Source: a virus. Taken from it: a stretch of 58,057 nt of DNA. A program made the position numbers and the translations under genes. Below the pieces are notes generated by a model. That model saw nothing but the letters and a program-made list of their open reading frames with translations, had not been told where the DNA came from and did no database searches. Shown here in pieces: positions 2,433-31,405 of the stretch (its first letter is position 1; each line of letters begins with the position of its first letter). The stretch lies in IMG/VR virus record IMGVR_UViG_3300018914_000025, one strand, 5' to 3'.

Positions 2433-2551
2433 AAAACCCGCCTCCTGTGCGCCTGATTTTCGCGTTTTTAACCCCTGGGGGTTAGCGCTATACCCGCCGA
2501 CCCCCGAAAATCGAAATTTGACCCGTTTCTGTCCGTCTGCGTATCATTCTC

Positions 2552-2566
2552 GATACGTTTCGTATC
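2552..2566. promoter_or_regulatory. GATAC-N5-GTATC palindrome, site 1 (GATACgtttcGTATC)
   Basis: Perfect half-sites in the intergenic region upstream of the 2432->189 gene string. Confidence 0.6.
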
Positions 2567-2593
2567 ATCGACTGCATCAAAACAGCTGCCCGG

Positions 2594-3705: not shown

Positions 3706-3707
3706 AT

Positions 3708-4712: not shown

Positions 4713-4737
4713 TACAGTATCACTCTCCTTGTTGTTT

Positions 4738-4752
4738 GATACAATTCGTATC
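4738..4752. promoter_or_regulatory. GATAC-N5-GTATC palindrome, site 2 (GATACaattcGTATC)
   Basis: Perfect half-sites between the clamp-like gene and the next gene. Confidence 0.6.
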
Positions 4753-4770
4753 GCAATGAGCATACTTCTT

Positions 4771-5406: not shown

Positions 5407-5419
5407 AAACCATTCCTCC

Positions 5420-5434
5420 GATACGTTTTGTATC
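5420..5434. promoter_or_regulatory. GATAC-N5-GTATC palindrome, site 3 (GATACgttttGTATC)
   Basis: Perfect half-sites between the polymerase stop and the clamp-like gene RBS. Confidence 0.6.
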
Positions 5435-5446
5435 ACGACGGGCGCA

Positions 5447-7838: not shown

Positions 7839-8903
7839 CTACAGCAGGGCCTTCAGCAGATGGCGCATGTGCTCATTCTGTGACGTGAGGGCCTCGATTT
7901 TACGGGTCAGGGAGTCGACAACCTCTTTGTACGACTCAATTTCGACTACATGACGCTTTTTGATTTCCTGCAGCTCGTCCTTCAAATGATCGAAGCTGAT
8001 CTTCTCACGATTAGTGGGGCCCGCACTCGTAGTTTCAGATACAGCATCCGCGCTTTTCTTCAACAGCCCCCATCGCTTCTTCGCGTGGTAGACGGCCGCT
8101 TTTGTGACGTTACATAGTTTCGATATTTCCGCATCGGTTTTTCCTTCCGCGACTAGTCGCTCCAGGGTTTCTTTCTCCAATTTGGCTTTTGCCACTTCTT
8201 CTTCTCCTTTCACTCCACGGTATCTATTCAGCAACTCTCCGATTCTAGCTACTATTCTGGAAATGTGAGCCTGTGAGACTCCCATTTCCTTTGAAATTTC
8301 GTCCTGCGTCATTCCTGACATTTTAAGCCGAATGACCTTCTGATCTCTTTCATTCAGCGTTTGTAGGAACTCTGATACAAAAACAGAGGAATAGTCCTCC
8401 TCCACCGGTATTGTGTTGTAGACACTCGTTTTTTCGTTGTCCAGATGTTCGGGAGCAGCGTCAGCATAGACCAGGTTAGAGGCTTTGATGTATTTAAGCG
8501 CCGCCTCCACTTCACACATTGGCCGAACCAACCGCTCGGAGATCTCTTCTGCGCTCATCGATTCAAGCCCCTGGAGTTTTATTTGATTGGCGACCTCGTA
8601 AACCGGTCGGGAGGGCCGTAATAAAGCTCCTTTGTCGCGTAGAAATCTTAGAACCTCCCCCTGGATCATCGGAACCGCGTAGGTGGAGAATCTCTTTACT
8701 CCTTCAAACAACGTCGGGTCGTATCTGTCAAACGCCCGGATCAGTCCGACGCACCCCTCGCTGTAAATCTCGTCGTAATCAATACCTAAAGCTGCAGCAC
8801 GTCGCCTGAACTTTTGCGCCACCATGTGAACCAGTTTGAGGTGAGAAGGAATCACCTCGTCCTTATAGCCCAGGTGCGGGTTATAATCACGAATCGCTGA
8901 CAC
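7839..8903 (-). CDS. Sigma-70 family sigma factor with a C-terminal extension (extra HTH plus coiled coil)
   Basis: Region 2-like FSTYAVPMIQGEVLRFLRD and region 4.2-like MTQDEISKEMGVSQAHISRIVARI. About 130 further residues contain KLCNVTKAAVYHAKKRWG and a heptad-like tail. Confidence 0.85.
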   Translation of the reverse strand: MSAIRDYNPHLGYKDEVIPSHLKLVHMVAQKFRRRAAALGIDYDEIYSEGCVGLIRAFDRYDPTLFEGVKRFSTYAVPMIQGEVLRFLRDKGALLRPSRPVYEVANQIKLQGLESMSAEEISERLVRPMCEVEAALKYIKASNLVYADAAPEHLDNEKTSVYNTIPVEEDYSSVFVSEFLQTLNERDQKVIRLKMSGMTQDEISKEMGVSQAHISRIVARIGELLNRYRGVKGEEEVAKAKLEKETLERLVAEGKTDAEISKLCNVTKAAVYHAKKRWGLLKKSADAVSETTSAGPTNREKISFDHLKDELQEIKKRHVVEIESYKEVVDSLTRKIEALTSQNEHMRHLLKALL

Positions 8904-13377: not shown

Positions 13378-14895
13378 TCACCAGCGAATGCCGCTGAGAA
13401 AATCTGCGATCTCGTCGCGTTCTGTTCTCGGCTTCTTTGGTACCTTCAGCCCCAGGCGTTTGTACACCGACCGGCGGCTGCTGTACTGGCTGCGGAACAC
13501 TCCGACGTTGTAGTCCACGTAGTCGAACCAGATCGCCTTTTTGTCGGGGTTCGCCGGGTCCGGCCGCATAATCCGGCCGATCTCTTGCTCCACCGCCGCT
13601 CCGTTTCGGCTGCCGGATGCATCCCCGCGTTTCGGTGTGACCATGTGCCCGATCGTCAGGTGTGGCATGTCCAGACCTTCCCGGGCAAGCTGCGTCGCGA
13701 TGAGGACGTCGACCTCTTTCCGATAGGCGGCATCGAGGATCTCCTTTCGCTCCTTCTTCGGCAGCTTCCCATGCACCACCGATACGCGCAATTTCCCTTT
13801 TGATACGTTTTGTATCATAGACTGCAGCAGATAGCCATACTCGACCCGTTCAGTCAGAACGATGCTGTAGTTTCCAGGCGCGTGCTTTACGATGTTCTCT
13901 GCTACCAGCTGGGCGCGCTTCTCGTCGTTGATCAGCGCCTCCATCAGGGCATTGTAGTTGAGGTCTTCCCCGCCGGCATCCACGCTGTCGATCTCGTTGC
14001 GGTCACTCGCCTGCTCGTAGTCGAATTCGGTGTACACGAACCGGATCTCCGGCTTGATCAGACGCCCTGACTCGTACAGTCCGTCACGCTTGATCTCGTA
14101 GACGATCGGACCCACCCCGGCGTACAGGTAGCACTCCAACTTGTCTTTTCGCTCCGGAGTCGCTGTGAGCCCCAGTACGTTGGCCGCCGGGAACTGCCCG
14201 GCCACTTCGAGAAACGCAGGTGCTGGGAAGTGGTGCGCCTCGTCGATCACCAGTGTTCCGATGATCGGTTTCAGCGTTTCGACCAGGTGTGGGTGTGCCT
14301 GCAGCGTTTGAACCGTTGCGACGATCAGCTTCCCGTCTCCCCACTCTTGCTTCCCGTCTCCGAGAATCCCGACTCTCCCGACGCCGAGCAAGTACCGCTC
14401 TGCGTTCTTCGCTGACTGATACATCAGGTCTTTTGTGTGGGTCAGCCAGAGCGCCGGCCGTCCCTTTTCCCAGATGTACCACATGCCCATCAGCGTCTTT
14501 CCGGACCCTGCGGGTGCGACCAGAACGCCGTTTTTCAAAAGGACGGCTTTGATCGCAGGGCGCTGGTCTTCCTTCGGGATGTACTTCGCGTTCCACTCCC
14601 CGAAGTCCACCTTCCACCCTTCCGTCAGCCGCTTTGTGACGACTTCGTGAGGGTTAATCCCGTGTTTCAGGAGGATGTCCACAAGGCTGACGTAGAACCC
14701 CCGCGGAACGATCAAGTCACCTCGGTCGTACGTGTAGAGCGTCAGCTTTTTATCGATGCCCCACGTCGGCCGCTTTTTCGACTTCCTTTCGATATACACG
14801 GGATTGTCCAGTGTCAGCGCTGCGGTGATCTCCTCCCGTAAGGGCACCGACGCTCCGCGAATCCGGATATTGTTGCTTACAAGTATCTGCAGCAC
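13378..14895 (-). CDS. SF2 DEAD/DEAH-box DNA helicase
   Basis: Walker A VAPAGSGKT, motif II VIDEAHHF, motif III GLTATP, then a C-terminal RecA-like domain. Confidence 0.85.
   Translation of the reverse strand: MLQILVSNNIRIRGASVPLREEITAALTLDNPVYIERKSKKRPTWGIDKKLTLYTYDRGDLIVPRGFYVSLVDILLKHGINPHEVVTKRLTEGWKVDFGEWNAKYIPKEDQRPAIKAVLLKNGVLVAPAGSGKTLMGMWYIWEKGRPALWLTHTKDLMYQSAKNAERYLLGVGRVGILGDGKQEWGDGKLIVATVQTLQAHPHLVETLKPIIGTLVIDEAHHFPAPAFLEVAGQFPAANVLGLTATPERKDKLECYLYAGVGPIVYEIKRDGLYESGRLIKPEIRFVYTEFDYEQASDRNEIDSVDAGGEDLNYNALMEALINDEKRAQLVAENIVKHAPGNYSIVLTERVEYGYLLQSMIQNVSKGKLRVSVVHGKLPKKERKEILDAAYRKEVDVLIATQLAREGLDMPHLTIGHMVTPKRGDASGSRNGAAVEQEIGRIMRPDPANPDKKAIWFDYVDYNVGVFRSQYSSRRSVYKRLGLKVPKKPRTERDEIADFLSGIRW
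13802..13816. promoter_or_regulatory. GATAC-N5-GTATC palindrome, site 4 (GATACgttttGTATC), intragenic
   Basis: Perfect half-sites inside the SF2 helicase ORF, where they encode ..IQNVS.. Confidence 0.5.
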
Positions 14896-19768: not shown

Positions 19769-19781
19769 CTCACTTCTGTTC

Positions 19782-19796
19782 GATAAAATTTGTATC
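19782..19796. promoter_or_regulatory. GATAC-N5-GTATC palindrome, site 5 (GATAAaatttGTATC, one mismatch)
   Basis: Lies 14 nt upstream of the SbcC N-terminal ORF start. Confidence 0.5.
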
Positions 19797-19877
19797 GATT
19801 TTTGAAACTTGCGAGACGATGTTCCGTATATCTCAGCAAGACCACCTCCTTTCGAGGTTACTTTTTATATCTTCTGC

Positions 19878-19892
19878 GATACTTTTTGTATC
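19878..19892. promoter_or_regulatory. GATAC-N5-GTATC palindrome, site 6 (GATACtttttGTATC)
   Basis: Perfect half-sites just downstream of the cro-like gene; the palindrome extends to GCGATAC..GTATCTTCGC. Confidence 0.6.
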
Positions 19893-19902
19893 TTCGCAGG
19901 CG

Positions 19903-20100
19903 TTAAAAAAGATCAGGGAACAGCTCTTCCTCTGATTTATCGTAGAATTTCGCCAGCTGCTTACTGAGTGCCCTGCTCGGGTTTCGGGTCCCGGCTTCCA
20001 GTTTTCTCAGATAAATTTCTGAGATATGGAGAGCTTGCGCGGCCGATGCCTGACTCAGATTTCGATTCAATCGGGCTTTTTTTAACGCTTCCCGCCTCAT
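19903..20100 (-). CDS. XRE-family HTH protein (Cro-like position)
   Basis: LKKARLNRNLSQASAAQALHISEIYLRKLEAG; divergent from the cI-like gene. Confidence 0.8.
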   Translation of the reverse strand: MRREALKKARLNRNLSQASAAQALHISEIYLRKLEAGTRNPSRALSKQLAKFYDKSEEELFPDLF

Positions 20101-20145
20101 AGCACACCTCCCTAGCTACAAATTGTGAAAATAACACTAGAAAAC

Positions 20146-20160
20146 GATACAAAATGTATC
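20146..20160. promoter_or_regulatory. GATAC-N5-GTATC palindrome, site 7 (GATACaaaatGTATC) in the divergent switch region
   Basis: Perfect half-sites directly abutting a TATAAT hexamer (20161-20166), between the divergent XRE genes. Confidence 0.65.
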
Positions 20161-20200
20161 TATAATGATAATCATGTACACATTGATCGGAGGGCTTATC

Positions 20201-20527
20201 ATGTTAGGTCAAAGACTGAAGGAATTGCGTGGATCTCGTACACAAGATGAAATTGCGGAAAAACTGGAGATTCCAAGGGCTCGGTACAGTCATTACGAGA
20301 ATGAGCGTAACAAACCGGAGCCTGAAATGCTTATCAAAATGGCGCTGCTGTTTGATACCAGCATTGATTACTTACTGGGGCTTACTGAGGAACGGTTCCC
20401 GACTTACCGCACCGCCGCTCATGACGATCGCGCCCGAGAAGATCGGGAATTCGTTCAGATATTCATGAACTTGTCTCCTGAGAAGAAACAGGCTCTTGTT
20501 CACCTGGTTAAGACCTTTGCTTGTTGA
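20201..20527 (+). CDS. XRE-family HTH repressor (cI-like position)
   Basis: MLGQRLKELRGSRTQDEIAEKLEIPRARYSHYENERNKPEPEMLIKMALLFDTSIDYLLG; GGAGGG RBS before this ATG (ORF track starts at 20165). Confidence 0.8.
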   Translation: MLGQRLKELRGSRTQDEIAEKLEIPRARYSHYENERNKPEPEMLIKMALLFDTSIDYLLGLTEERFPTYRTAAHDDRAREDREFVQIFMNLSPEKKQALVHLVKTFAC

Positions 20528-20690
20528 TGTTCTCTTCGATAACTTGGAAGTTGATTTCCGGATGCAGCTTCTCTAGCTCGTCCATTTCCTCAAACAGAGA
20601 ATTCATCTTCGCTTTCAGTTCTTCGATTTTGGCACGGAGGTTATTAACCTCTGTGCTTTTTTGTATGTATGATGCGATCGCGTTCTCCAT
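20508..20690 (-). CDS. Small coiled-coil protein in the aimX-equivalent position
   Basis: MENAIASYIQKSTEVNNLRAKIEELKAKMNSLFEEMDELEKL... after a GGGGG RBS; its 3' end overlaps the cI-like gene 3' end by 20 nt (convergent). Confidence 0.4.
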   Translation of the reverse strand: MENAIASYIQKSTEVNNLRAKIEELKAKMNSLFEEMDELEKLHPEINFQVIEENINKQRS

Positions 20691-20771
20691 GTTCAACCCC
20701 CAAATATACGAACGACTGTTCGTGTTTCTATTATCTCTAGTTATTGGAAGATCGTCAACCAATTTTTTGAG

Positions 20772-20787
20772 TTAACGGTTCCGTTAA
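20772..20787. promoter_or_regulatory. Perfect palindrome TTAACGGttCCGTTAA
   Basis: 7+2+7 palindrome between the pro-peptide terminator and the small downstream ORF. Confidence 0.35.
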
Positions 20788-20811
20788 TCTATCTGTCTCT
20801 ATCGTAACCCC

Positions 20812-20848
20812 ACTTTCCATCTTTACAAATAGCTAGAAGATGGAAAGT
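20812..20848. promoter_or_regulatory. 10-bp inverted repeat ACTTTCCATC-N17-GATGGAAAGT (candidate receptor operator)
   Basis: Perfect 10-bp arms with a 17-nt spacer and no T-tract on either side; lies downstream of the pro-peptide terminator. Confidence 0.4.
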
Positions 20849-20874: not shown

Positions 20875-20909
20875 TCCCAAAAGAGGAAGCATCGTACCGC
20901 GATGCTTCC
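20875..20909 (-). terminator. Rho-independent terminator after the pro-peptide gene
   Basis: Stem GGAAGCATCG/CGATGCTTCC (10 bp, 5-nt loop) followed on the minus strand by TCTTTTGGG. Confidence 0.75.
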
Positions 20910-20923
20910 TCCGTTCGGACTTC

Positions 20924-21076
20924 TTACCAACCGGGCCCCTCTTGGTTTGTTGTTACCGGAGTAGGCTCAGTGATCGGAAGTGGTGCGACGCCCCAGCCAG
21001 GTCCTTCTTGTGCAGAAGCGCTGACCGGAATAACGAGCGCGATCGCAAACAATACGAAAATCAAAAGTTTTTTCAT
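20924..21076 (-). CDS. Secreted signalling pro-peptide (50 aa) with two QEGPGW copies
   Basis: Hand translation: MKKLLIFVLFAIALVIPVSASAQEGPGWGVAPLPITEPTPVTTNQEGPGW*. AGGTGG RBS; signal peptide with an ASA-type cleavage site; terminator downstream; 74 nt after the RRNPP-like receptor. It falls below the ORF-track size cutoff. Confidence 0.7.
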   Translation of the reverse strand: MKKLLIFVLFAIALVIPVSASAQEGPGWGVAPLPITEPTPVTTNQEGPGW

Positions 21077-21124
21077 ACGATGCTACCACCTATCATGTGA
21101 ACTTGTTTCATGAAAATAGTAAAC

Positions 21125-21139
21125 GATACAATAAGCATC
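21125..21139. promoter_or_regulatory. GATAC-N5-GTATC palindrome, site 8a (GATACaataaGCATC, one mismatch)
   Basis: Between the receptor stop and the pro-peptide start. Confidence 0.5.
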
Positions 21140-21150
21140 GGTCAATCTAG

Positions 21151-22497
21151 TTATACGATACAAATTGTATCGTACTTTCTCGCCCTTTCGTACTCCTCCA
21201 TGGCAAATGTACATCTATCGATCTGTGCAGGTGTCGCGAAAGTAATATTTTTCAATAAAAGCGTCACACATCGGATAGTAACCACCGGCATCTTAAACCG
21301 GGCGGACAAGTCAATAGCATACAGCAGATCCTCAATAGCTGACCCCCCCATGCCAACATGAAAAAAATACTTTGACCTGTAATACCTGAAGTATGCAATG
21401 TATTTCGCGCTTAGTGGGTCGTTAAGCGAATGCAGCTGTCTAATTTCCGCATCAAAATCCGATAAAAATGCTGGGATCTGTTCATACTTTTCAAAATTTA
21501 CAAGGGACTTAATTACAGTTGTCAAATTTCTGCAACGGTTCGGCTGTTGCTTAATAAAGGCCATCAAGGCTTCAATGTTTTCCGTGTTTCCCGCAGAAAT
21601 CTCCACCGTCATTCGATTGACTGCAGCAAGGGAGCTGTAGAGATCACTTACTCCTTTTGAATACTCATCGATCAGCGCTAACGCTGTTTTGAAATCCTTT
21701 TTCTCTTCTGACACAGCGCCTAGATAGAAAAGTGCGCCTGCATACGATTCGACGTCCATACCGACCGCAATTCCAGCTAATTCCTTTGCGTATTTTTCCA
21801 CACCGCTCCAATGTTCGATTGCGTAAAATACCGCTAGAACACGTAGGTAAGCCTCCGTTTGCATTAGACCTTTCAGGTGTTTTAAATACTCTGTGAGTTT
21901 AACAGCTGCCTCATAAGCCGTGATCAAGTCATGATCCCTGACTATTAAAAAACTTCGATAAAAACTGACAGCGAGGTCTGGAGACATCCGATTTGACTCT
22001 TTCTCTATGACTTTGTTATAAAACCGCAGCGCCTCGTCATGATGACCTTTTCCGAACAGCGACTCCGCGATGGCGAAGATGATGTCGAGGTTTCCAGGGA
22101 TGGCTGTAAGCTCATTCATGGCCTCTTCTACAAGATCCGTCAAACCCAGCTCGTAGCATCGTACCACGAACTCCTCTGTTTTTTTGCGCAGCCGCTTCCC
22201 TCCCTTCCCCCAACACTCACCACTGAACAGGTGGTAAAAATACCCGGGTGGAAGTTCCAGCGCCTCTGTGACTGCATCCAGGACCTCCAGCGAGAATGTA
22301 CGACTGCCTCCCAGCATGCGGCTCAGATCCGACTGGCTCACATTTTTCTGCGCGGCAATGGAGACAGGCGACACCCCTCTTTCTCGCATCGCGTTTGTGA
22401 TTTCCTCCCGTAACGTGCTGTATCGGCGGTCACTCGTTAACGTCATCCCCAAAACAAAAAACCCCCTCGCTTGCCATCTTGTACACACATTATACAA
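21151..22497 (-). CDS. RRNPP-family (AimR/NprR/PlcR-like) peptide receptor: N-terminal HTH plus TPR-like repeats
   Basis: N-terminal XRE-type HTH (VSPVSIAAQKNVSQSDLSRMLGGSRTFSLEVLDAVTEAL), then about 370 aa of helix-repeat sequence rich in A/L/Y/E. The pro-peptide gene lies immediately downstream. The real start may be the internal MTLTSDRR (22446). Confidence 0.75.
   Translation of the reverse strand: MYNVCTRWQARGFFVLGMTLTSDRRYSTLREEITNAMRERGVSPVSIAAQKNVSQSDLSRMLGGSRTFSLEVLDAVTEALELPPGYFYHLFSGECWGKGGKRLRKKTEEFVVRCYELGLTDLVEEAMNELTAIPGNLDIIFAIAESLFGKGHHDEALRFYNKVIEKESNRMSPDLAVSFYRSFLIVRDHDLITAYEAAVKLTEYLKHLKGLMQTEAYLRVLAVFYAIEHWSGVEKYAKELAGIAVGMDVESYAGALFYLGAVSEEKKDFKTALALIDEYSKGVSDLYSSLAAVNRMTVEISAGNTENIEALMAFIKQQPNRCRNLTTVIKSLVNFEKYEQIPAFLSDFDAEIRQLHSLNDPLSAKYIAYFRYYRSKYFFHVGMGGSAIEDLLYAIDLSARFKMPVVTIRCVTLLLKNITFATPAQIDRCTFAMEEYERARKYDTICIV
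21157..21171. promoter_or_regulatory. GATAC-N5-GTATC palindrome, site 8b (GATACaaattGTATC)
   Basis: Perfect half-sites with extended arms TACGATAC..GTATCGTA; overlaps the last receptor codons (..DTICIV*). Confidence 0.6.
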
Positions 22498-22590
22498 GTG
22501 GCAATTGTTTACGAAAAGGGGTTTTTGCTCAAATGAAAAATATTTTTATCCTCATTCGTGAATACGAACGCCGTTTTTTCGTTTTTGTCT

Positions 22591-23328
22591 CTACCTTTTC
22601 AGCGTTTTCCGTACGGTCCCGACGCGATCGTCGGCCACTTTGATCCGGTTTCCGTTCGCGTCATCCGTGAAAGTGATCGTCTGGTCAAAACTGTGGTACT
22701 GGTCTATTTTGCTCAGGTTCGCGATGCAGGACCGGGACACTGTGATGAACCCGTGAGGCTCCAGATAGCCGCTGTACTGCCGCAGGGAAATGTCGGAAGG
22801 GTACACGTCTGCAGTGGTGTGGACGGTGATCTCCCGAGCTTTTGACTGGATGAACAGCACGTCGTCGATCGGCAGCTGCTGGACGGTCTCCCCTGCCACA
22901 GGAACATACACGCACCCGGCCGCTTCGAACCGGTCGTACATCAGTCGGCGCTGCACCCGCTGCAGAGCCCCCGGCAACGGGCTGTGATCATCGTACAGGT
23001 CGGTCTTGTCCACCACCTGGACCACCCCGATCTGCCGCAGTTCTGCCTGGTCTACAGCGTTTGTGTCCATCGTGACGACGATTGCCGGCATGCGGCCGCC
23101 GGATTTACGATACAACCTGTAGACGTCAAGTCCGGTCATACTGTCCTCATCCAGCTGGATGTCGAGGATCACAGCATCAAAATCTTCCGGTCGGTCTTCG
23201 ACGATCGCAAAGAACTCCCTCGAATTCCGTGCGATGTCAAACTGCTTGATCCCCAGCTGTTCAAGAAAGGCGGTTATTAACTTCTGGTGTGCAGGGTTGT
23301 CCTCCAGCACCAGGATTCGAAGATCCAT
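22591..23328 (-). CDS. Response regulator with LytTR DNA-binding domain (AgrA/ComE-like)
   Basis: Receiver domain (LVLEDN, AVILDIQL aspartate pocket) plus C-terminal LytTR-like LPIDDVLFIQSKAREITVHT...FITVSRSCIANLSKI. Confidence 0.9.
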   Translation of the reverse strand: MDLRILVLEDNPAHQKLITAFLEQLGIKQFDIARNSREFFAIVEDRPEDFDAVILDIQLDEDSMTGLDVYRLYRKSGGRMPAIVVTMDTNAVDQAELRQIGVVQVVDKTDLYDDHSPLPGALQRVQRRLMYDRFEAAGCVYVPVAGETVQQLPIDDVLFIQSKAREITVHTTADVYPSDISLRQYSGYLEPHGFITVSRSCIANLSKIDQYHSFDQTITFTDDANGNRIKVADDRVGTVRKTLKR

Positions 23329-23660: not shown

Positions 23661-23714
23661 AGAGCAGCCGTTTGCGGCTGACTCCGGCCTACAGGTTAAC
23701 CAACCCGTTAACAC

Positions 23715-23895
23715 AAAATATATAATGCTCGGGATTTTGGGAGGGGGTACCTCCCCTGCACTCATTGTACCGTGTACAGGTGTATTGAAGAACCCCCCTC
23801 ACGAATCAGAGCTATTATATATTATATATATTATTAAATATAAAAATAAAATTATATATTATATAGTATATATCTATTACATGTAAAGTTCTTAC
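23715..23895. repeat. Imperfect inverted repeat, copy A (partner 56521..56701)
   Basis: Hand alignment with the reverse complement of 56521-56701. Shared blocks: AAAATATATAAT(C)GCTC-GATTTTGG-GGGGGTACC, GAACCCCCC, TTATATATTATATATA, TATATTATATAGTATATA, GTAAAG. Confidence 0.8.
23814..23880. other. ~67-bp almost pure A/T tract (candidate DNA-unwinding element)
   Basis: Read directly: ATTATATATTATATATATTATTAAATATAAAAATAAAATTATATATTATATAGTATATATCTATTAC. Confidence 0.6.
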
Positions 23896-26053: not shown

Positions 26054-26635
26054 TTAACCCGTTTTCCCCTGCTGCAGCAGGTCGGTGATGCTGCGGAGCT
26101 GATACACCCGGAACGGCAGGCCATCCGGCACCGGGATCCGGTACTCTGTCAGGATGATTAGCCAGGGAAACACCGGAAACAGACCTTTGTGGAACAGCGT
26201 GCGGTACCGGGCGAACTTATCCTGCCACACAGCCGGCGTGAACTGGTTACGTTGCACTTCGATAATCAGTGGCCGGCCTACCCAAACAGCGAACGCATCC
26301 GGCTCCGGTAACCCTTTTCCGTACTTCGGCTCCGGAACGAACGTCTCCGGCGGCCGCAGCTCCGCCAGCTGGTGGTACACGGCGGCGATCTCCAGATAGT
26401 GCGGGATCTTTTGAGAGTCCTTTTTGATTGGGGACGGCTTCACCGCGTAGACGAACGGAGCGCGCGTGGTGATCACTTCCACCTCCCCGCGGTCCCGCAG
26501 GCGGCGAAGTACCCGGTTGGCCGCGTTCACGCCGTCCCTGACACCTTTGAAATGCAGCTTGATGATGTCGTCCCGGGATAGGCACCGGAAGCGCTCCAGG
26601 TCTTTCAGGATTGCTTTGTCACGTTGTTGTCGCAT
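26054..26635 (-). CDS. Replication-relaxation family protein (Replic_Relax-like wHTH)
   Basis: N-terminus ILKDLERFRCLSRDDIIKLHF...ANRVLRRLRDRGEVEVI matches the family pattern; sits directly after an FtsK/SpoIIIE ATPase, as is typical. Confidence 0.65.
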   Translation of the reverse strand: MRQQRDKAILKDLERFRCLSRDDIIKLHFKGVRDGVNAANRVLRRLRDRGEVEVITTRAPFVYAVKPSPIKKDSQKIPHYLEIAAVYHQLAELRPPETFVPEPKYGKGLPEPDAFAVWVGRPLIIEVQRNQFTPAVWQDKFARYRTLFHKGLFPVFPWLIILTEYRIPVPDGLPFRVYQLRSITDLLQQGKTG

Positions 26636-28047
26636 GTGGCAGCAGCCTCCCCGTTCATGAGTTCTTCCACGAGTCTCCGCAGCTCGTCGCTTTCCTGTTT
26701 GGTCAGCTCAACCTCTGGCGTGATTTCCGGGTTGACCCGGACATACAGTGGTTTCTTTTTGTGGCCGGCATAGCGCCGCCGTACCTCATCCAGCTGGGCG
26801 CGCGCCTCCTGCGGCGAGATCCACGGCGTCTGAACTTCATCCATGTCCAGCGCTGCCTTCACGTAGCAGCGTCCCTTCACATTGATGTGTGCCGCATCCG
26901 GTGTACCCAGAAACATCGTGCTGTTCATGTCGTCGCTCATTCGGTAGGAGATCCGGACGTTCAGGTTGTTCTTCAGCTTACCGTCCATCACTTCCCGGTC
27001 AACCCGCTGCTGGGAGAGGATCAAGAAGATGCCGAGGCTTCGCCCCATCTGGCCGATCTCCTCCAGCACTTCATGCACCGCAGTCTCCCCTTCCAGACTG
27101 GCGACTTCATCGATGCACACCACGACAAACGGCAATCGCTCTCCGGTCATTTCCTCGTATTCCTGCTGATCGATTGCTCCGGCTTCATAAAACAGCTCCT
27201 GCCGGTACACCAGGATGTTGTGAACCTCGGCCAGCATGGCCGCCACTTCTGCCCGGCGAACTGCGATCTTCCCCTCAACGTGCGGCACGCTGCGGTACAT
27301 CCCGAACTCCGACATCTTCATATCGCCAAGGAACAGCCGGAGCCGATCCGGCGAATACGTCTGCAGCCAGCTGTTGAGCATACAGCGCAGGGCCGTTGAC
27401 TTCCCCCACCCGGTAACGCCCACCAGACCGACGTGCGGCTGCTTCTGCAGGTCGATCGCCACGCTGCCGCCGTCGGACTCCCCGACGTACAGCGCGAACC
27501 CGCCGGCGCTCTCCATCGCTTTCTGTGCGACCTCCAGCGAGTACGGAATCGTTCCGGGTAGCGCCACGGGAACTGCCAGCCGGTAACGCCCGGCGCCGTC
27601 GTTGATCAGTTTGGCTGTCGAACCGAACACATTTTGGAACACCCATGAGCGCTGTTCAATCATGGCCGGGTCCATCCCGGTCGGCAGCTTCAACGATACG
27701 GATATGCCCTGCTCGTTCTGCGTCACGCGCTCGATCGTCGGGAATACCCGGTACGGCTTCATCTTTCCGTCTCCCAGATCCCGGCGCTCTCTGGTCAGAT
27801 GGATGCCAGCCTGGATGAACGCGTCTGTGAGGCGCTCTTTTACCCGGACGGTTGGGTCAATCAGCCGCGGCAACCGGAGCGCGCCGTAGGCGGCCACAGA
27901 GGCCCCTGTGAGCGTTTTGGCGAGCAGATAGACACCATCAGCCACCCACCGGGTCGGTGCGCCCGCCAGCGTTCCTCCGAACAGCTCCAGAAACACATCC
28001 CGGCATAGATCCTCCAGCTCGTTGTCGAGCCACTTGAAAACATTCAC
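26605..28047 (-). CDS. FtsK/SpoIIIE-family DNA translocase ATPase
   Basis: Walker A GLVGVTGWGKST, Walker B FVVVCIDEVASL, followed by RSLGIFLILSQQR. Confidence 0.9.
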   Translation of the reverse strand: MNVFKWLDNELEDLCRDVFLELFGGTLAGAPTRWVADGVYLLAKTLTGASVAAYGALRLPRLIDPTVRVKERLTDAFIQAGIHLTRERRDLGDGKMKPYRVFPTIERVTQNEQGISVSLKLPTGMDPAMIEQRSWVFQNVFGSTAKLINDGAGRYRLAVPVALPGTIPYSLEVAQKAMESAGGFALYVGESDGGSVAIDLQKQPHVGLVGVTGWGKSTALRCMLNSWLQTYSPDRLRLFLGDMKMSEFGMYRSVPHVEGKIAVRRAEVAAMLAEVHNILVYRQELFYEAGAIDQQEYEEMTGERLPFVVVCIDEVASLEGETAVHEVLEEIGQMGRSLGIFLILSQQRVDREVMDGKLKNNLNVRISYRMSDDMNSTMFLGTPDAAHINVKGRCYVKAALDMDEVQTPWISPQEARAQLDEVRRRYAGHKKKPLYVRVNPEITPEVELTKQESDELRRLVEELMNGEAAATCDNNVTKQS

Positions 28048-28172
28048 ACAATTCAGCCCCCTTCGGCCCCGAACTCCCGCGGCGCGCTCCGCTTGCCACG
28101 TTCGTTCTTAACAAATAGTCGCTTCCTCGCTGTCATGCGGCTTTGAGGCTTGATTACTGCTGTAGGCTTATG

Positions 28173-28209
28173 GCGGTAGGTAGTGCATCAATTGGTGCGG
28201 TAGCTAGTG
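28173..28209. repeat. Two 13-bp direct repeats GCGGTAG(G/C)TAGTG, 24 bp apart
   Basis: Copies at 28173-28185 and 28197-28209 in the 268-bp non-coding region upstream of the FtsK-like gene. Confidence 0.5.
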
Positions 28210-28315
28210 TGGTAACAGCGTATGGGGGTCCGATTGTCCATAATTCCGATTTTTCTCGGGGATTCGCTGTATTTTTTTCGGATATTTGGTCAAGGCTGGC
28301 TACTGAGGTGATGAA

Positions 28316-28540
28316 ATGTTTGGACTCGGGAAGAAAAGATCAAAATTGGGAAAGTGGCTGGACGATCGGGGAATCAGACAATCATGGTTGGCGCAGCAAT
28401 CGAGGGTCAGCGAGGACACGATCACAGCTCTTTGCAGGGATGATCATAAGCTGCCGTCCGGTACGACGATGAAAAAGATTCTGCAGGCGCTCCGGAAGGT
28501 TGATCCGAAAGTGAAGCAGGAGGATTTCTGGACAATGTGA
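28316..28540 (+). CDS. Small HTH DNA-binding protein
   Basis: LGKWLDDRGIRQSWLAQQSRVSEDTITALCRD; terminator follows. Confidence 0.6.
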   Translation: MFGLGKKRSKLGKWLDDRGIRQSWLAQQSRVSEDTITALCRDDHKLPSGTTMKKILQALRKVDPKVKQEDFWTM

Positions 28541-28543
28541 AAG

Positions 28544-28571
28544 CCGATCAAATGATCGGTCTTTATTTTTT
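28544..28571 (+). terminator. Rho-independent terminator
   Basis: CCGATCA aa TGATCGG hairpin followed by TCTTTATTTTTT. Confidence 0.6.
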
Positions 28572-28698
28572 ATGGCAATTGTTTTGTAGTTTTAATAAAA
28601 CTATAATAAAAAACTGTTGCCAAATGCTTCTTGCGGGGGTAATATTGAATCAATAGTAGAATTTTAATAAAAATACATTGAATTCGGAGGGGTATTAC

Positions 28699-29715
28699 AT
28701 GATAGTTTTGGGGATCGACCACGGAAATGGAAATGTAAAGGGGTACAGCGCGGAAAAATCACTGCTGCTTCCGTCTGCTTACGCAAGACCAGAGGACTTC
28801 AGCGAGGAGGGGCTGGCAAAGAAAGAATTGGACCTGCATCAGTATAGCTCCGCTAAGTTTGAAGGGGAGACCTATCTGTGGGGCAAAGATGTGCTGGAGG
28901 CTAGCAAGCTCATTACTACATACGCAGCTCAAAATCGATATGCGGAAAAGTCGTACCGACTGCTTTCCGAGTTTGCGATCGCGTCTTTGCTGCCTTCAGG
29001 GCAAGGGAACACTTTTGACAATGTAATGCTGGTAACAGGCTGCCCAAGCCGTGAGAAGGGGACTAAATCGGAAGAGAATCTGAAAAACGTATTCGCTGGC
29101 GGTCATGTGGTAAAGGTTGACGGGCGCGATTTGGTCATCCATGTAACAAGCGTTGTTGTTCTCCCACAGCCTCTTGGAACGGTGGCGTCGTTGTATCTTG
29201 ATGTCCAGGGTTACGTTCTCGACGATAGCTACGAGGAGAGCTATGTAGCCGTCATCGACATCGGCAGTGGCACCACGGACATCGACGGCATCAAAGCGCT
29301 GAATCGTCAAATCGAGGATACCGATACTATTCCGATGGGCATGTTTGATGCTTATCAAAAGATTGCAGATTACGTCAATGATCAAATGCCGGAGGCGCTG
29401 GCGACGCCTGACAAAGTGGAGCGTCAAATTCTGAATGGCTCCGATTCGTATAAAGTTAGCCAACGAGCAAGTGTAGATATAACTGACATCAAATCGAAGG
29501 CGTTCCGAGAGCTTGCTGAGGATCTGACCAACGGCATAAACAAACGCTGGAAAAATCGGGCGAAGTTTGACAAACTGCTGCTCACTGGAGGCGGTGCGAA
29601 ACCGCTGGCTGACCACTTCAAGAATTGGGATAAAGATGTAATCGTAGTGGAGAATGCACAGCAAGCAAACGCCGCAGGGTTTTATCGATACGGAGTCATG
29701 ATGGCTAGGGGGTAA
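28699..29715 (+). CDS. parM: ParM/StbA-like actin-fold partition ATPase
   Basis: Phosphate-1 VLGIDHGNGNVKG, phosphate-2 VIDIGSGTTD, adenosine-motif LLLTGGGA; GGAGGGG RBS before this ATG. Confidence 0.85.
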   Translation: MIVLGIDHGNGNVKGYSAEKSLLLPSAYARPEDFSEEGLAKKELDLHQYSSAKFEGETYLWGKDVLEASKLITTYAAQNRYAEKSYRLLSEFAIASLLPSGQGNTFDNVMLVTGCPSREKGTKSEENLKNVFAGGHVVKVDGRDLVIHVTSVVVLPQPLGTVASLYLDVQGYVLDDSYEESYVAVIDIGSGTTDIDGIKALNRQIEDTDTIPMGMFDAYQKIADYVNDQMPEALATPDKVERQILNGSDSYKVSQRASVDITDIKSKAFRELAEDLTNGINKRWKNRAKFDKLLLTGGGAKPLADHFKNWDKDVIVVENAQQANAAGFYRYGVMMARG

Positions 29716-29985: not shown

Positions 29986-30064
29986 TCAAAAATTGATGCA
30001 CTTTCGACAAAATTCGAGTATATTCGATATTGTTATTAACTTCGCGGAGGCGTTAACCTACAGC

Positions 30065-31405
30065 ATGAATATACTCAATTTTTTGTTCATTGCAGTGCCA
30101 GAAGGGCTAGTTTCAATCGCGCTGGGGATGTCCGTGTTCAACATGTCGGTAAGACAAAACGTGAAGGGGTGGCTTGCTGCAGGTGTTTTGTTCGGGGGCG
30201 GCAGCTTCACTCTGACAGCGATGCACGTTCCATATGAGCCGAAAATCTTCACGTTGTTCCTGTACTTGTGCCTGCTGGTGTACATCCTCGTCGTACGCAA
30301 GGTGTGGCTTGCTGTATTGATCTCCTGTACGGCGTACGCCGCGGTGAATGCCGCTGAGTTCATCATCCTGGAGGCGTTCAACGTATTCCGGATCAGCCTC
30401 GATGCGATCCTGGCGAATCCCGTGTACCTGTATTTGGCTGTATGGTCTTATCTCTTCATCCTACTCACCGTGACAATCGTTCTCCGAAAACTCCGCTTCG
30501 ACCTGCAAAACCTGTTTCCCAAGAAAGAGATCAACCGCTATCTGCTGTGGATGGTGTTGGCCGGGGGAGTGGAATTTTTCATCCTGTCAGTCCTTCTTAC
30601 TCGATACTTCCTGCAGCAAACGAACACATCAAGCATGCTCACAGTACTGAACGTCCCGGTACTGCTTGTAACGAGTTTTGTGCTCTTCATCGCGTTGATC
30701 TTCCTGTTCCGCAAGTACCTGATGCTGACCGTCGACAGGGCCGTGGAAGAGGCCGAGGCTCCGTACACGAAAAACCTGACCGATCTCTCTATTGCAGTCC
30801 GATCGATCAAACACGACTCCATGTCGCACTACCAGACGATCCTGGGATTCATCAAGCTGCGGCGGTATGACATGGTGGAAGAATACATACGGCACCTCGC
30901 TGACGAGGCCCGTGACCTGATCAAGATTGTGCAGGAGGTAAAAAACCCGGTTGTCGCAGCGCTGTTGTACGGGAAAATGCAACAGTTTACAGCTAATCAG
31001 ATCGACTTCCAGGTCCGGATACAAGAGGGCATTTCCCAGCTGGAGGGCTGGCGCGACATCGACATCGCCAAGGTGCTGGGGAACCTGCTGGATAACGCCG
31101 TGATGGCCGCTCTGAAGGTCGACGAGAGTGTCCGGTATATCCGGATGGAATGGGGCGTTGTCGGAGGGGATGAGTACCTGTACATCGAAAACAGTGGGCC
31201 GACGATCGGCCCCGATCAACTGGACCGGATCTTCGACCTCGGCTATACGACCCGCGAGTCGGGAAGGGGAGGGGTAGGCCTGGCTGTCGTAAAGGCCGTC
31301 GTCACCAAGTACAAGGGGACCGTCAAAGTTCGCTCGGAAGACGGACTGACGAGCTTCACAATCACAGTCCCAGCTGGGGAGAAAACAAAAACCGCTTCGG
31401 CATAG
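30065..31405 (+). CDS. AgrC/ComD-like (HPK10-type) membrane sensor histidine kinase
   Basis: About 6 predicted TM helices; H-box SIKHDSMSHYQTILGFI, N-box LGNLLDNAVMAA, G-box GRGGVGLAVVKAVV. Start at MNILNF after GCGGAGG (ORF track starts at 29993). Confidence 0.9.
   Translation: MNILNFLFIAVPEGLVSIALGMSVFNMSVRQNVKGWLAAGVLFGGGSFTLTAMHVPYEPKIFTLFLYLCLLVYILVVRKVWLAVLISCTAYAAVNAAEFIILEAFNVFRISLDAILANPVYLYLAVWSYLFILLTVTIVLRKLRFDLQNLFPKKEINRYLLWMVLAGGVEFFILSVLLTRYFLQQTNTSSMLTVLNVPVLLVTSFVLFIALIFLFRKYLMLTVDRAVEEAEAPYTKNLTDLSIAVRSIKHDSMSHYQTILGFIKLRRYDMVEEYIRHLADEARDLIKIVQEVKNPVVAALLYGKMQQFTANQIDFQVRIQEGISQLEGWRDIDIAKVLGNLLDNAVMAALKVDESVRYIRMEWGVVGGDEYLYIENSGPTIGPDQLDRIFDLGYTTRESGRGGVGLAVVKAVVTKYKGTVKVRSEDGLTSFTITVPAGEKTKTASA

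What the first reader, a model, noticed from the sequence alone, without database searches (positions are those of the whole stretch)
20924..22497. Phage-borne RRNPP-type receptor plus an unannotated 50-aa secreted pro-peptide carrying two QEGPGW copies (arbitrium-like cassette with a different peptide)
The 448-aa ORF has an XRE-type HTH followed by about 370 aa of TPR-like helical repeats. That is the AimR/NprR/PlcR architecture. Seventy-four nt downstream on the same strand lies an ORF below the 60-aa cutoff of the ORF track, with an AGGTGG RBS. It reads MKKLLIFVLFAIALVIPVSASA|QEGPGWGVAPLPITEPTPVTTNQEGPGW*. It has a Sec signal peptide with an AxA-type cleavage site. The predicted secreted 28-mer begins and ends with the same hexapeptide, so one precursor could give two mature signals. 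A strong terminator follows. The cassette lies about 0.4 kb from the divergent cro/cI-like pair. The order receptor -> peptide -> terminator -> small gene mirrors aimR-aimP-aimX. The peptide, however, is unlike the SAIRGA/GMPRGA-type arbitrium peptides.
Basis: partly seen in the sequence, partly recalled or inferred. Interest (0 to 1): 0.88.

Follow-up and report, generated by a model that had tools for sequence, protein, structure and literature searches.

The report
Phage peptide-signalling cassette with double-headed propeptide
A temperate phage carries, beside its lysis/lysogeny switch, a peptide receptor and a small secreted precursor that should yield two identical six-residue signals, so it is a credible non-arbitrium case of phage "talk", but of a kind already predicted in bulk by others.

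Summary
Both ORFs lie on the minus strand. They are a 433-aa receptor (HTH plus TPR-like superhelix, 21151-22452) and, 74 nt downstream, a 50-aa ORF (20924-21076). The small ORF has an AGGTGG ribosome-binding site, a Sec-type signal ending ASA, and QEGPGW both right after the cleavage site and at the C-terminus. A strong hairpin follows.

The window is a whole 58-kb myovirus-like plasmid-prophage contig. Its receptor relatives sit on Brevibacillus "plasmids" and in Brevibacillus phage Emery.

The key new evidence is comparative. Five related elements keep the same module, and each has its own hexapeptide twice in the same "bookend" layout: EDGPGW, HGGIGW, DIGERP, DNGPKW. Within each gene the two copies differ only by synonymous changes (21 synonymous, 0 non-synonymous), so both copies are under selection.

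The receptor belongs to the AloR clade of RRNPP receptors of Paenibacillaceae, not to AimR. Its downstream small gene is not Spo0E-like. In this lineage the peptide promoter carries two copies of the palindrome that also marks the cI/cro region.

Function in lysis/lysogeny is inferred, not shown. Phage-borne non-AimR RRNPP systems and multi-copy propeptides are already described. I class this as a new variant of a known kind, of moderate interest.

The parts
21151..22452 (-). RRNPP-type receptor gene (433 aa; the mechanical ORF extends to 22497): N-terminal XRE-type HTH, then about 9 TPR-like repeats, then a disordered C-terminal tail
   Evidence: AlphaFold2 model pLDDT 92.4. Full-length homology to AloR-type proteins.
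22478..22498 (-). Inverted repeat CTTGTA-N9-TACAAG over the TATAAT -10 box (22489-22494) of the presumed receptor promoter; a candidate autoregulatory site
   Evidence: Conserved in L003, L004 and L009 (alignment A5). The binding protein is unknown.
21156..21172 (.). Palindrome CGATACAAATTGTATCG (site A). It overlaps the last receptor codons (DTICIV), about 55 bp upstream of the presumed start of the peptide transcript
   Evidence: Same place in L003 and in L004 (sequence read). The encoded tail is disordered in both models, so the conservation is likely at the DNA level.
21116..21145 (-). Peptide-gene promoter TTGACC-18-TACTAT, with palindrome site B (21124-21140, CGATACAATAAGCATCG) inside the spacer
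   Evidence: Sites A and B are 32 bp apart centre to centre.
21086..21091 (-). AGGTGG ribosome-binding site, 9 nt before the ATG
20924..21076 (-). 50-aa propeptide gene: Sec-type signal (aa 1-22, ...VSASA|), QEGPGW copy 1 (20993-21010), 16-aa spacer, QEGPGW copy 2 (20927-20944), stop
   Evidence: Orthologous small ORFs in L003, L009, L001, L016, L017. Codon comparison.
20875..20919 (-). Intrinsic-terminator-like hairpin (13-bp core stem) followed by CUUUUGGG
   Evidence: Hairpin conserved in L003 and L009 (A4).
20813..20847 (.). Inverted repeat CTTTCCATCTT-N13-AAGATGGAAAG between the terminator and the small-ORF promoter; a candidate receptor operator (widely spaced half-sites)
   Evidence: Read. 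Partly conserved in L003 and L009 (A4). The assignment is speculative.
20703..20758 (-). Promoter of the downstream small gene (TTGACG-17-GATAAT, 20730-20758), followed by the conserved palindrome ACGAAC-N4-GTTCGT (20706-20725) at about +1
20508..20696 (-). Small downstream ORF (60-62 aa, coiled-coil-like). It sits in the aimX/spo0E position, converges on the 3' end of cI and overlaps it
   Evidence: Not Spo0E-like, whereas the positive control L019 is.
20201..20527 (+). cI-like repressor (HTH_3, no peptidase domain)
   Evidence: 38-43% identical to annotated phage repressors, including phig1e Cpg and Emery gp64.
19903..20100 (-). cro-like HTH gene, first gene of the leftward early operon
19781..20161 (.). 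Three further copies of the CGATAC-N5-GTATCG palindrome: 20145-20161 in the cI/cro intergenic region (inside the spacer of the cI promoter), and 19877-19893 and 19781-19797 after cro
   Evidence: L003 has matching sites at 7063 and 7332.
22591..23328 (-). LytTR-family response regulator directly upstream of the receptor on the same strand. The linkage is conserved in L003, L004, L009, L016 and L017

Best explanation
This is a peptide quorum-sensing cassette of the RRNPP type (AloR clade). It is built into the immunity region of a temperate, plasmid-like myovirus of Brevibacillus or a close relative.

Proposed steps (all inferred unless marked otherwise):
1. The 50-aa product is exported by Sec and cut after ASA.
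2. Extracellular proteases release two identical hexapeptides, QEGPGW, from the two ends of the 28-mer.
3. The hexapeptide is taken up by the host oligopeptide permease.
4. It binds the TPR groove of the HTH receptor.
5. By analogy with AloR13 and AimR, the free receptor switches on the small downstream gene, which runs into the 3' end of cI. Bound peptide switches it off. High peptide, meaning many recent infections or many lysogens, would then favour repressor action and lysogeny.
6. In this lineage the peptide gene has its own promoter with two copies of the immunity operator. Signal output is therefore tied to the cI/Cro state.

Shown here: the gene anatomy, the fold, the homology, the conserved module, and selection on both peptide copies.
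Inferred: processing, uptake, binding, the DNA target and the direction of the effect.
For: Phage identity.

Receptor fold: pLDDT 92.4, HTH plus TPR-like repeats.

AloR-clade homology:
- E 1e-43 to the pBRLA33 receptor whose peptide ends HGVGG.
- E 1e-20 to 7e-22 to AloR16.
- hhalign probability 100%, E 2.5e-48.

The family is small: 211 clusters at 50% identity among 1.84 billion proteins.

The module [HTH]<->[LytTR regulator]->receptor->peptide->small ORF<-cI, cro-> is kept in L003, L004 (contig ends after the receptor), L009 and L016. L017 keeps it with the peptide gene inverted. Emery (L001) keeps it without the LytTR regulator.

Peptides, each present twice in the same layout:
- QEGPGW (window)
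- EDGPGW (L003, L009)
- HGGIGW (Emery)
- DIGERP (L016)
- DNGPKW (L017)

The two copies differ at 2-5 of 6 codons, always synonymously.

Relatives that do not carry the phage immunity module (one short metagenomic contig and two megaplasmids) end in single copies...NNEGTGW...FGEGW...VGEGW. This places the active part at the C-terminus.

AloR13 precedent: adding the peptide lowers expression of the gene just downstream (PMC7425212).

Operator motif:
- 12 sites against about 2 expected; 0 of 100 shuffles reach 12.
- Emery's cI/cro sites have the same architecture, GATAG-N5-CTATC, and are confined to its cI/cro region.
Against: - There is no experimental datum of any kind for this subfamily.
- SignalP could not be run. 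The signal peptide is judged by eye and by conservation.
- The receptor's DNA site is not identified.
- The small downstream ORFs are unrelated in sequence between lineages. The target may therefore be a transcript, or something else.
- The palindrome at the peptide promoter is absent from the same place in Emery and was not found in L016 or L017. That coupling is specific to this lineage.
- Structure comparison with AimR or Rap is no better than with generic TPR proteins (TM about 0.42, E about 1e-3).
- In L017 the peptide gene is inverted, so co-transcription with the receptor is not required.
Confidence: 0.6

Rival explanations
1. The cassette is a genuine receptor-peptide pair, but it reprograms the host (sporulation, competence or other density-dependent traits) for the benefit of the plasmid-prophage. 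It does not set the phage's own lysis/lysogeny choice.
For: - Many AloR systems sit upstream of spo0E-like genes and regulate them (PMC7425212).
- Close relatives on small Brevibacillus plasmids have Spo0E genes downstream.
- Bernard et al. proposed sporulation hijack for phage-borne RRNPP systems (10.1101/2021.07.15.452460; PMC10075063).
- This element lives as a plasmid-like prophage with ParM, so long-term residence is expected.
Against: - The downstream small ORFs of the phage versions are not Spo0E-like, while the control is.
- The cassette is always wedged against cI/cro in six elements.
- In this lineage its promoter carries the immunity-region palindrome.
Confidence: 0.2
2. The CGATAC-N5-GTATCG palindromes are the receptor's own operators, not those of cI/Cro. 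The receptor would then directly control cI, cro, the early operon and its own peptide gene (a feedback loop), and would be the master switch.
For: - Two sites flank or overlap the peptide promoter, and one is embedded in the receptor's last codons. This arrangement is conserved in L003 and L004.
- Several RRNPP regulators (ComR, Rgg, PlcR) bind palindromes at their peptide gene's promoter. This rests on established knowledge of those families.
- The receptor HTH is nearly invariant among the three closest homologues.
Against: - Emery has sites of the same architecture (GATAG-N5-CTATC) only in its cI/cro region, and none near its receptor or peptide genes.
- Emery's cI is a homologue of the window's cI (38% identity).
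- Site B lies in the promoter spacer, which is a repressor-type position.
- cI, cro and the receptor are all about 50-58% identical between the window and L003. Co-variation therefore cannot separate them.
Confidence: 0.2
3. The secreted peptide is sensed outside the cell by the phage-encoded histidine kinase (29993-31405), which signals through the LytTR regulator beside the receptor (an Agr/Com-like circuit). The TPR protein would have another role.
For: - The LytTR regulator is tightly linked to the receptor in five related elements.
- A GHKL kinase of the peptide-sensing type is on the phage and on two related plasmids.
- Emery carries AgrB.
Against: - The kinase has no match on the DP1.3A element, which keeps the regulator, receptor and double peptide.
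- Emery keeps the receptor and double peptide without a LytTR neighbour.
- Known kinase-sensed pheromones use AgrB or double-glycine exporters, not Sec signals (established knowledge).
- Relatives that do not carry the phage module pair the receptor with the peptide alone.
Confidence: 0.06
4. The 50-codon ORF is a chance ORF, and the repeat is a recent slippage duplication with no function.
For: The ORF is below usual gene-calling length. It is absent from the gene table held here (PLSDB) for the RefSeq record of the closest isolate element.
Against: - Six orthologous ORFs with the same layout exist, with five different hexapeptides.
- The copies show 21 synonymous and 0 non-synonymous differences.
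- The ORF has a ribosome-binding site, its own promoter and a terminator.
Confidence: 0.02

Closest known systems
AloR-AloP systems of Paenibacillaceae (Voichek et al. 2020, PMC7425212)
   Same: - Full-length homology of the receptor (HTH plus about 9 degenerate TPRs).
- A Sec-signal propeptide just downstream.
- A glycine-rich C-terminal hexapeptide (SHGRGG, HGVGG, and HGLGGW in AloP16).
- A small regulated gene next door.
- Paenibacillaceae hosts, with frequent carriage on plasmids.
- Some AloP13 variants also repeat the motif (FGHGNGN...YGHGNGH; supplement).
   Different: - Only 24-27% identical to typical AloR.
- Peptides end in GxGW, or are unrelated (DIGERP).
- Both ends of the pro-region carry the signal.
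- The downstream gene is not Spo0E-like.
- The cassette sits in a phage immunity region next to cI/cro and a LytTR regulator.
Arbitrium (AimR-AimP-AimX) of Bacillus phages (Erez 2017; Stokar-Avihail 2019)
   Same: - Phage-borne.
- Order receptor -> peptide -> terminator -> small gene.
- Located beside the lysogeny control region.
- Six-residue mature signal expected.
- AimR and AloR are placed in one structural clan (PMC12700828).
- Some AimP precursors also hold several copies (PMC9765709).
   Different: - No detectable sequence similarity to AimR.
- Structural match no better than to any TPR protein.
- The peptide lacks the xxxxGG/A or DPG motif.
- The repressor here is a classic cI/cro pair.
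- The peptide promoter carries immunity-type operators.
- The host family is different.
Phage- and plasmid-borne candidate RRNPP systems catalogued by RRNPP_detector (Bernard et al. 2021/2023, PMC10075063), including Paenibacillaceae cluster 8
   Same: The same idea, that non-AimR receptor-propeptide pairs occur on Brevibacillus phages and plasmids. The pBRLA33 plasmid named there carries one AloR-type relative of this receptor.
   Different: - The pBRLA33 system with a DPG-type peptide, presumably cluster 8, shows no significant similarity to the window receptor.
- Neither Emery nor GPGW/GIGW peptides were found in the supplementary text held here.
- The bookend layout, its co-variation and the operator coupling are not described there, as far as I could read.
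Multi-copy Phr/NprX/PapR/AimP propeptides (Even-Tov 2016; Felipe-Ruiz 2022, PMC9765709)
   Same: One precursor carries two or more copies of the mature signal.
   Different: - Here the first copy begins exactly at the signal-peptidase site and the second ends the protein.
- This exact layout recurs in all five phage-type lineages examined, with five different sequences.

Membership tests
RRNPP (receptor-propeptide quorum sensing) | Cytoplasmic receptor with a TPR-type peptide-binding superhelix | tested here: met
   AlphaFold2 pLDDT 92.4, about 18 paired helices. Weak Pfam TPR hits. TPR proteins, including AimR and Rap, appear among Foldseek hits. No signal peptide or membrane segment was seen in the translated sequence.
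RRNPP (receptor-propeptide quorum sensing) | [quoted passage not shown] | tested here: met
   HTH_31 and HTH_26 below cut-off. PHROG repressor families at 5.5e-8. The profile hits solved C-protein and HipB HTH domains at about 1e-6.
RRNPP (receptor-propeptide quorum sensing) | Adjacent small gene for a Sec-exported propeptide with the mature signal at the C-terminus | tested here: met
   The sequence has an MKK n-region, a 13-residue hydrophobic core and ASA at -3 to -1. The ORF is conserved in six elements. SignalP itself was not available.
RRNPP (receptor-propeptide quorum sensing) | Mature peptide is imported and binds the receptor, changing its activity | not testable with these tools
   Needs binding assays, or co-folding with a multimer predictor.
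AloR-AloP | Receptor homologous to AloR of Paenibacillus polymyxa and relatives | tested here: met
   BLASTP to AloR16 of P. jamilae: 24% over 390 aa, E 7e-22. hhalign probability 100%, E 2.5e-48. E 1e-43 to 1e-32 to receptors paired with HGVGG/HGMGG peptides.
AloR-AloP | Host in Paenibacillaceae | tested here: met
   The closest isolate relative is on a Brevibacillus sp. DP1.3A plasmid. 31 of 35 plasmid hits are Paenibacillus or Brevibacillus. The host of the window itself is inferred.
AloR-AloP | spo0E-like gene immediately downstream (seen in many, not all, Alo loci) | tested here: not met
   No SpoOE-like match even at E up to 10 for the window, L003, Emery, L016 or L017 small ORFs. The control L019 matches at 4.5e-9.
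AloR-AloP | At least 30% identity over at least 80% of length to known members (the clustering rule of Bernard et al.) | tested here: not met
   24-27% identity to AloR16 and to the receptors paired with HGVGG-type peptides. By that rule this is a sister subfamily.
Arbitrium (AimR-AimP-AimX) | Receptor homologous to AimR | tested here: not met
   No AimR match in NCBIfam. No AimR match by profile against PDB sequences. Foldseek to AimR gives E about 6e-4 and TM 0.42, below generic TPR proteins.
Arbitrium (AimR-AimP-AimX) | Mature peptide of the xxxxGG/A (or DPG) type | tested here: not met
   The peptides are QEGPGW, EDGPGW, HGGIGW, DIGERP and DNGPKW.
Arbitrium (AimR-AimP-AimX) | Phage-borne receptor -> peptide -> small downstream gene, next to the lysogeny module | tested here: met
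Arbitrium (AimR-AimP-AimX) | Peptide concentration sets the lysis/lysogeny choice | not testable with these tools
   Needs infection assays.

The most novel reading that the evidence does not exclude
A second, independently recruited phage communication system. An AloR-derived receptor would be wired into a classic cI/cro switch. Each precursor would deliver two signal molecules from its two ends. In this lineage the immunity repressor (or Cro) would itself gate signal production through operators on the peptide promoter. The receptor would act through a small transcript that converges on cI. The phage would then count infections with a circuit that differs from arbitrium in receptor lineage, signal code and wiring.
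Probability: 0.35. Interest if true: 0.7.

Novelty: new variant of a known kind. Interest (0 to 1): 0.55.

Why it matters
Arbitrium is still the only phage peptide-communication system with experimental proof, and it is confined to Bacillus phages with AimR. This module gives a tractable second case.

- A cultured phage (Emery) and three sequenced Brevibacillus isolates with plasmid-prophages carry it.
- The candidate signals are explicit: five hexapeptides.
- The repressor/operator context is readable.

It would allow tests of three questions:
- whether density sensing evolved repeatedly in phages from bacterial RRNPP stock;
- whether doubling the signal per precursor matters;
- how a communication module is plugged into a cI/cro switch.

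On the practical side, the propeptide is missing from the gene table held here for the RefSeq record of the closest isolate element, and its receptor is called "hypothetical protein". The module is therefore easy to overlook in annotation.

Tried and rejected
- Near-identity DNA search of the 8-kb region against phage records: no match.
- The search for related loci with the 40- and 9-sequence receptor alignments: failed for lack of a conserved stretch.
- The 3-sequence alignment found one viral contig and nothing in the GTDB genomes.
- AloP13 was too short to use as a query; AloP16 worked.
- Searching the supplements of Bernard 2023 for Emery, AGR47394, GIGW or GPGW: nothing in the held text, which may be truncated.
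- Sequence profile against PDB chains: only generic TPR and HTH hits, no RRNPP member.
- Foldseek with either model does not single out AimR, Rap, PlcR or NprR above eukaryotic TPR proteins. The fold supports "TPR receptor" but cannot assign a subfamily.
- First palindrome search used the wrong spacing and gave 0 hits; corrected.
- I tried to decide whether cI/Cro or the receptor binds the palindrome. Comparing the window with L003 failed because all regulators are about equally diverged.
- Looking for palindromes in L008, which has no phage module on its short contig, gave nothing usable.
- Repeat searches in L016 and L017 found cI/cro-region repeats but none shared with the peptide promoter.
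- Spo0E identity of the downstream ORF: rejected.
- SecTim467 gp69 is a distant homologue (22%), but no secreted small ORF follows it.
- Co-folding of receptor and peptide was not possible with the single-chain predictor.
Full report
**1. What is in the sequence**

Both ORFs of the finding are real and lie on the minus strand.
- The long ORF runs 21151-22497 from an upstream TTG.
- The JGI gene call (433 aa) and the two closest homologues (432 aa) start at the position of TTG 22452.
- Exactly 74 nt after its stop comes a 50-codon ORF (20924-21076).
- That ORF is preceded by AGGTGG, 9 nt from the ATG.
- Its product is MKKLLIFVLFAIALVIPVSASA|QEGPGWGVAPLPITEPTPVTTNQEGPGW.
- It has a basic n-region, a 13-residue hydrophobic core and ASA at -3 to -1, a textbook signal-peptidase I site. 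This is judged by eye, because SignalP was not available.
- The hexapeptide QEGPGW starts at the predicted cleavage site and is also the C-terminus.
- A hairpin with a 13-bp core stem follows (-28.5 kcal/mol, z = -4.35). Its U tract is short.

**2. The element**

The window is an entire 58,057-bp metagenomic contig (JGI 3300018891). It encodes:
- terminase, portal, head protease, tail sheath and tape measure;
- DNA polymerase, a primase/MCM protein and a sigma factor;
- a ParM/Alp7A-type actin, FtsK and a replication-relaxation protein.

This is a temperate myovirus that probably persists as a plasmid.
- Its primase is about 70% identical to those of Bacillus phages vB_BboS-125 and phBC6A51.
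- The regulatory module points to Brevibacillus. The closest isolate copy of the receptor (47% identity) is on a 44.6-kb circular "plasmid" of Brevibacillus sp. DP1.3A, which is also an IMG/VR viral contig.
- In the gene table held here for that RefSeq record, the receptor is "hypothetical protein" and the propeptide is not listed.

**3. The receptor**

- Pfam sees only sub-threshold HTH and TPR signals.
- With three sequences AlphaFold2 gave pLDDT 77.6.
- With 40 family members it gave pLDDT 92.4 and pTM 0.87: a five-helix HTH domain, a linker, about 18 paired helices and a disordered last seven residues.
- Foldseek finds TPR superhelices in general (LGN, APC subunits). It also finds AimR at E 6e-4 (TM 0.42) and a Rap at 1e-3. 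That supports the fold class but cannot assign a subfamily.
- In the viral structure library the only real match is a 425-aa protein at TM 0.71 and 28% identity. By its length it is probably Emery gp60.
- An exhaustive HMMER search finds just 211 clusters (50% identity) at E <= 1e-3 among 1.84 billion proteins.
- Plasmid hits are almost all Paenibacillus and Brevibacillus.

I recovered AloR16 of the P. polymyxa group through its published propeptide (sequences from the supplement of PMC7425212).
- The window receptor aligns to it over 390 residues (24% identity, E 7e-22).
- The family profile matches it with probability 100% (E 2.5e-48).
- Receptors paired with HGVGG/HGMGG peptides and Spo0E genes, the canonical Alo pattern, match at 1e-43 to 1e-32.
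- The other pBRLA33 system, with a DPG-type peptide, is presumably "cluster/subfamily 08" of Bernard et al. and Moi et al. It shows no significant similarity.

The receptor is therefore an AloR-clade protein. By the 30%-identity rule it forms a sister subfamily. It shows no detectable sequence homology to AimR.

**4. The propeptide: the strongest result**

The same small ORF follows the receptor in every element that carries the phage-type module. Each has its own hexapeptide, present twice in the same bookend layout:

| Element | Pro-region |
|---|---|
| window | SASA\|QEGPGW-16 aa-QEGPGW* |
| L003, L009 | ANA\|EDGPGW-20 aa-EDGPGW* |
| phage Emery gp61 | VSA\|HGGIGW-8 aa-HGGIGW* |
| B. borstelensis S8 plasmid (L016) | ASA\|DIGERP-13 aa-DIGERP* |
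| Brevibacillus sp. HD3.3A linear plasmid (L017) | ASA\|DNGPKW-17 aa-DNGPKW*, gene inverted |

- Within each gene the two copies differ at 2-5 of the 6 codons, and every difference is synonymous. The total is 21 synonymous and 0 non-synonymous differences over six genes.
- That rules out a recent slippage duplication or ongoing gene conversion. It shows selection for identity of both copies at the peptide level.
- Relatives that do not carry the phage module end in a single copy...NNEGTGW...FGEGW...VGEGW.
- More distant relatives end in ...HGVGG or ...HGMGG. This links the set to AloP13 (SHGRGG) and AloP16 (HGLGGW).
- Multi-copy propeptides are known in Rap, NprR, PlcR and AimR systems (PMC9765709).
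- The AloP13 table of Voichek et al. contains a repeated example. The principle is therefore not new. The fixed bookend layout across five phage-type lineages is.

**5. Wiring**

The module order is kept in L003, L009 and L016. The order is: [HTH gene] <-> [LytTR response regulator] -> receptor -> propeptide -> terminator -> small ORF, then convergent cI, then divergent cro and the early operon.
- L004 shows its upstream part, up to the end of its short contig.
- L017 keeps the order with the peptide gene inverted.
- Emery keeps it from the receptor onward, but has an XRE gene in place of the LytTR regulator.

The palindrome CGATAC-N5-GTATCG occurs 12 times in the window against about 2 expected (0 of 100 shuffles reach 12). 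Five copies are clustered:
- one in the cI/cro intergenic region, inside the spacer of the cI promoter;
- two after cro;
- two, 32 bp apart, at the peptide gene. One of these is in the spacer of its TTGACC-18-TACTAT promoter. The other is embedded in the last receptor codons (DTICIV).

Further points on the palindrome:
- The DTICIV tail is disordered in the models yet conserved among homologues that are 48% identical overall. The DNA site, not the protein, appears to be what is conserved.
- L003 has the sites at the same four kinds of place.
- Emery's cI is 38% identical to the window's. Its cI/cro region holds four sites of the same architecture (GATAG-N5-CTATC), and Emery has none at its peptide gene.
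- I therefore assign the palindrome to cI and/or Cro. I read the two sites at the peptide promoter as immunity control of signal production, specific to the window/L003/L009 lineage.
- The alternative, that the receptor binds them, is kept as a rival at 0.2. The window-L003 comparison cannot decide, because all the regulators are about 50-58% identical.

The receptor's own target is not identified. Three inverted repeats are conserved between the window and L003/L009 and are listed as candidates:
- one over the -10 box of the receptor promoter;
- one between the terminator and the small-ORF promoter;
- one at +1 of the small-ORF transcript.

The small ORF (20508-20696):
- has a good promoter (TTGACG-17-GATAAT);
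- overlaps the 3' end of cI convergently;
- is not Spo0E-like;
- is not conserved in sequence between lineages, so the transcript may matter more than the protein.

**6. Mechanism proposed**

Export by Sec, cleavage after ASA and release of two QEGPGW molecules per precursor are inferred from the anatomy and from selection on both copies. Uptake by Opp and binding in the TPR groove are inferred from the family.

In AloR13 and in AimR, peptide binding switches off an activator of the gene just downstream (PMC7425212; established knowledge for AimR). By analogy the free receptor would drive the small ORF against cI, and accumulated peptide would relieve this and favour lysogeny or its maintenance. 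Signal output would be shut or opened by cI/Cro through the promoter operators.

Confidence:
- that this is a working receptor-peptide pair: about 0.85;
- that it acts on the phage's lysis/lysogeny behaviour: about 0.55;
- in the direction and the target: low.

**7. Rivals**

- Host manipulation in the Alo/Spo0E manner: 0.2.
- The receptor as the binder of the palindromes: 0.2. This is a sub-question, not exclusive of the main model.
- Extracellular sensing through the phage histidine kinase and the LytTR regulator: 0.06. This is weakened because the kinase has no match on the DP1.3A element and Emery has no LytTR regulator beside its receptor.
- A chance ORF: 0.02.

**8. Novelty and score**

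Already in the literature:
- phage-encoded RRNPP systems outside AimR (10.1101/2021.07.15.452460; PMC10075063);
- the AloR family (PMC7425212);
- the AloR/AimR structural clan (PMC12700828);
- multi-copy propeptides (PMC9765709).

Not found in what I could read:
- this subfamily with its GxGW, DIGERP and NGPKW codes;
- the conserved bookend precursor with proof of selection on both copies;
- its fixed place against cI/cro in a set of Brevibacillus plasmid-prophages and phage Emery;
- the immunity-type operators on the peptide promoter.

I class it as a new variant of a known kind. Interest is 0.55. A specialist would find it a good, testable second model for phage communication rather than a surprise.

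Noticed in passing
window 2551-2567, 4737-4753, 5419-5435, 13801-13817: Further copies of the immunity-type palindrome (mostly TGATAC-N5-GTATCA) lie at gene junctions or inside genes of the leftward replication operon, far from cI/cro. They may be extra repressor sites or internal promoters.
   Followed up: no
window 22591-23328 (-) and 29993-31405 (+): The phage encodes a LytTR response regulator directly upstream of the receptor. Seven kb away it encodes a GHKL histidine kinase with a SpoOB-type helical domain. The regulator-receptor linkage is conserved in five related elements. The kinase is on two of the related plasmids but has no match on the DP1.3A element. Emery instead carries AgrB and a possible AgrD. 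These phages may run two signalling systems.
   Followed up: partly
window 26054-29715: A ParM/Alp7A-like actin, an FtsK/SpoIIIE ATPase and a replication-relaxation protein are present. Relatives are deposited as circular or linear plasmids of Brevibacillus. The element is likely a plasmid-prophage rather than an integrating phage. I did not search the window for an integrase. One relative is annotated with a site-specific integrase.
   Followed up: partly
window 20508-20696 versus 20201-20527 and 20631-20657: The small ORF downstream of the peptide gene overlaps the 3' end of cI on the opposite strand. The best terminator for cI lies inside that ORF. Transcription of the small ORF would be antisense to the end of the cI message.
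   Followed up: no
window 20773-20790 and 23693-23721: GTTAACGGAACCGTTAAC lies just upstream of the -35 box of the small-ORF promoter. A related GTTAAC-containing sequence lies downstream of the third HTH gene. In L003 the matching place has GTTAA repeats 21 bp apart, a spacing typical of LytTR/AgrA sites. This may be a LytTR regulator input to the small-ORF promoter.
   Followed up: no
L001 (Emery) 3837-3852 and 3868-3883: Two perfect 16-bp palindromes (TCAGTTGTAAACTGAC and its mirror form) lie 32 bp apart, between the divergent XRE gene gp59 and the receptor gene gp60. They are a separate operator pair at the receptor promoter.
   Followed up: no
L018 (B. laterosporus pBRLA33) 793-2229 and 2480-3965: Two unrelated receptor-propeptide pairs sit in tandem on one 32-kb plasmid. 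One has a DYDPGY-ending peptide and the other a YEHGVGG-ending peptide. This matches the "two languages" plasmid mentioned by Bernard et al.
   Followed up: partly
L021, plasmids CP062263/CP062264: Plasmids labelled Brevibacterium sp. JNUCC-42 (Actinomycetota) carry AloR-type receptors with an HGVGG peptide and a Spo0E gene, typical of Brevibacillus. The organism label looks like a naming error.
   Followed up: no
window 7839-8903 and 189-1784: The phage encodes its own sigma factor and a large DNA methyltransferase in the early/replication operon.
   Followed up: no
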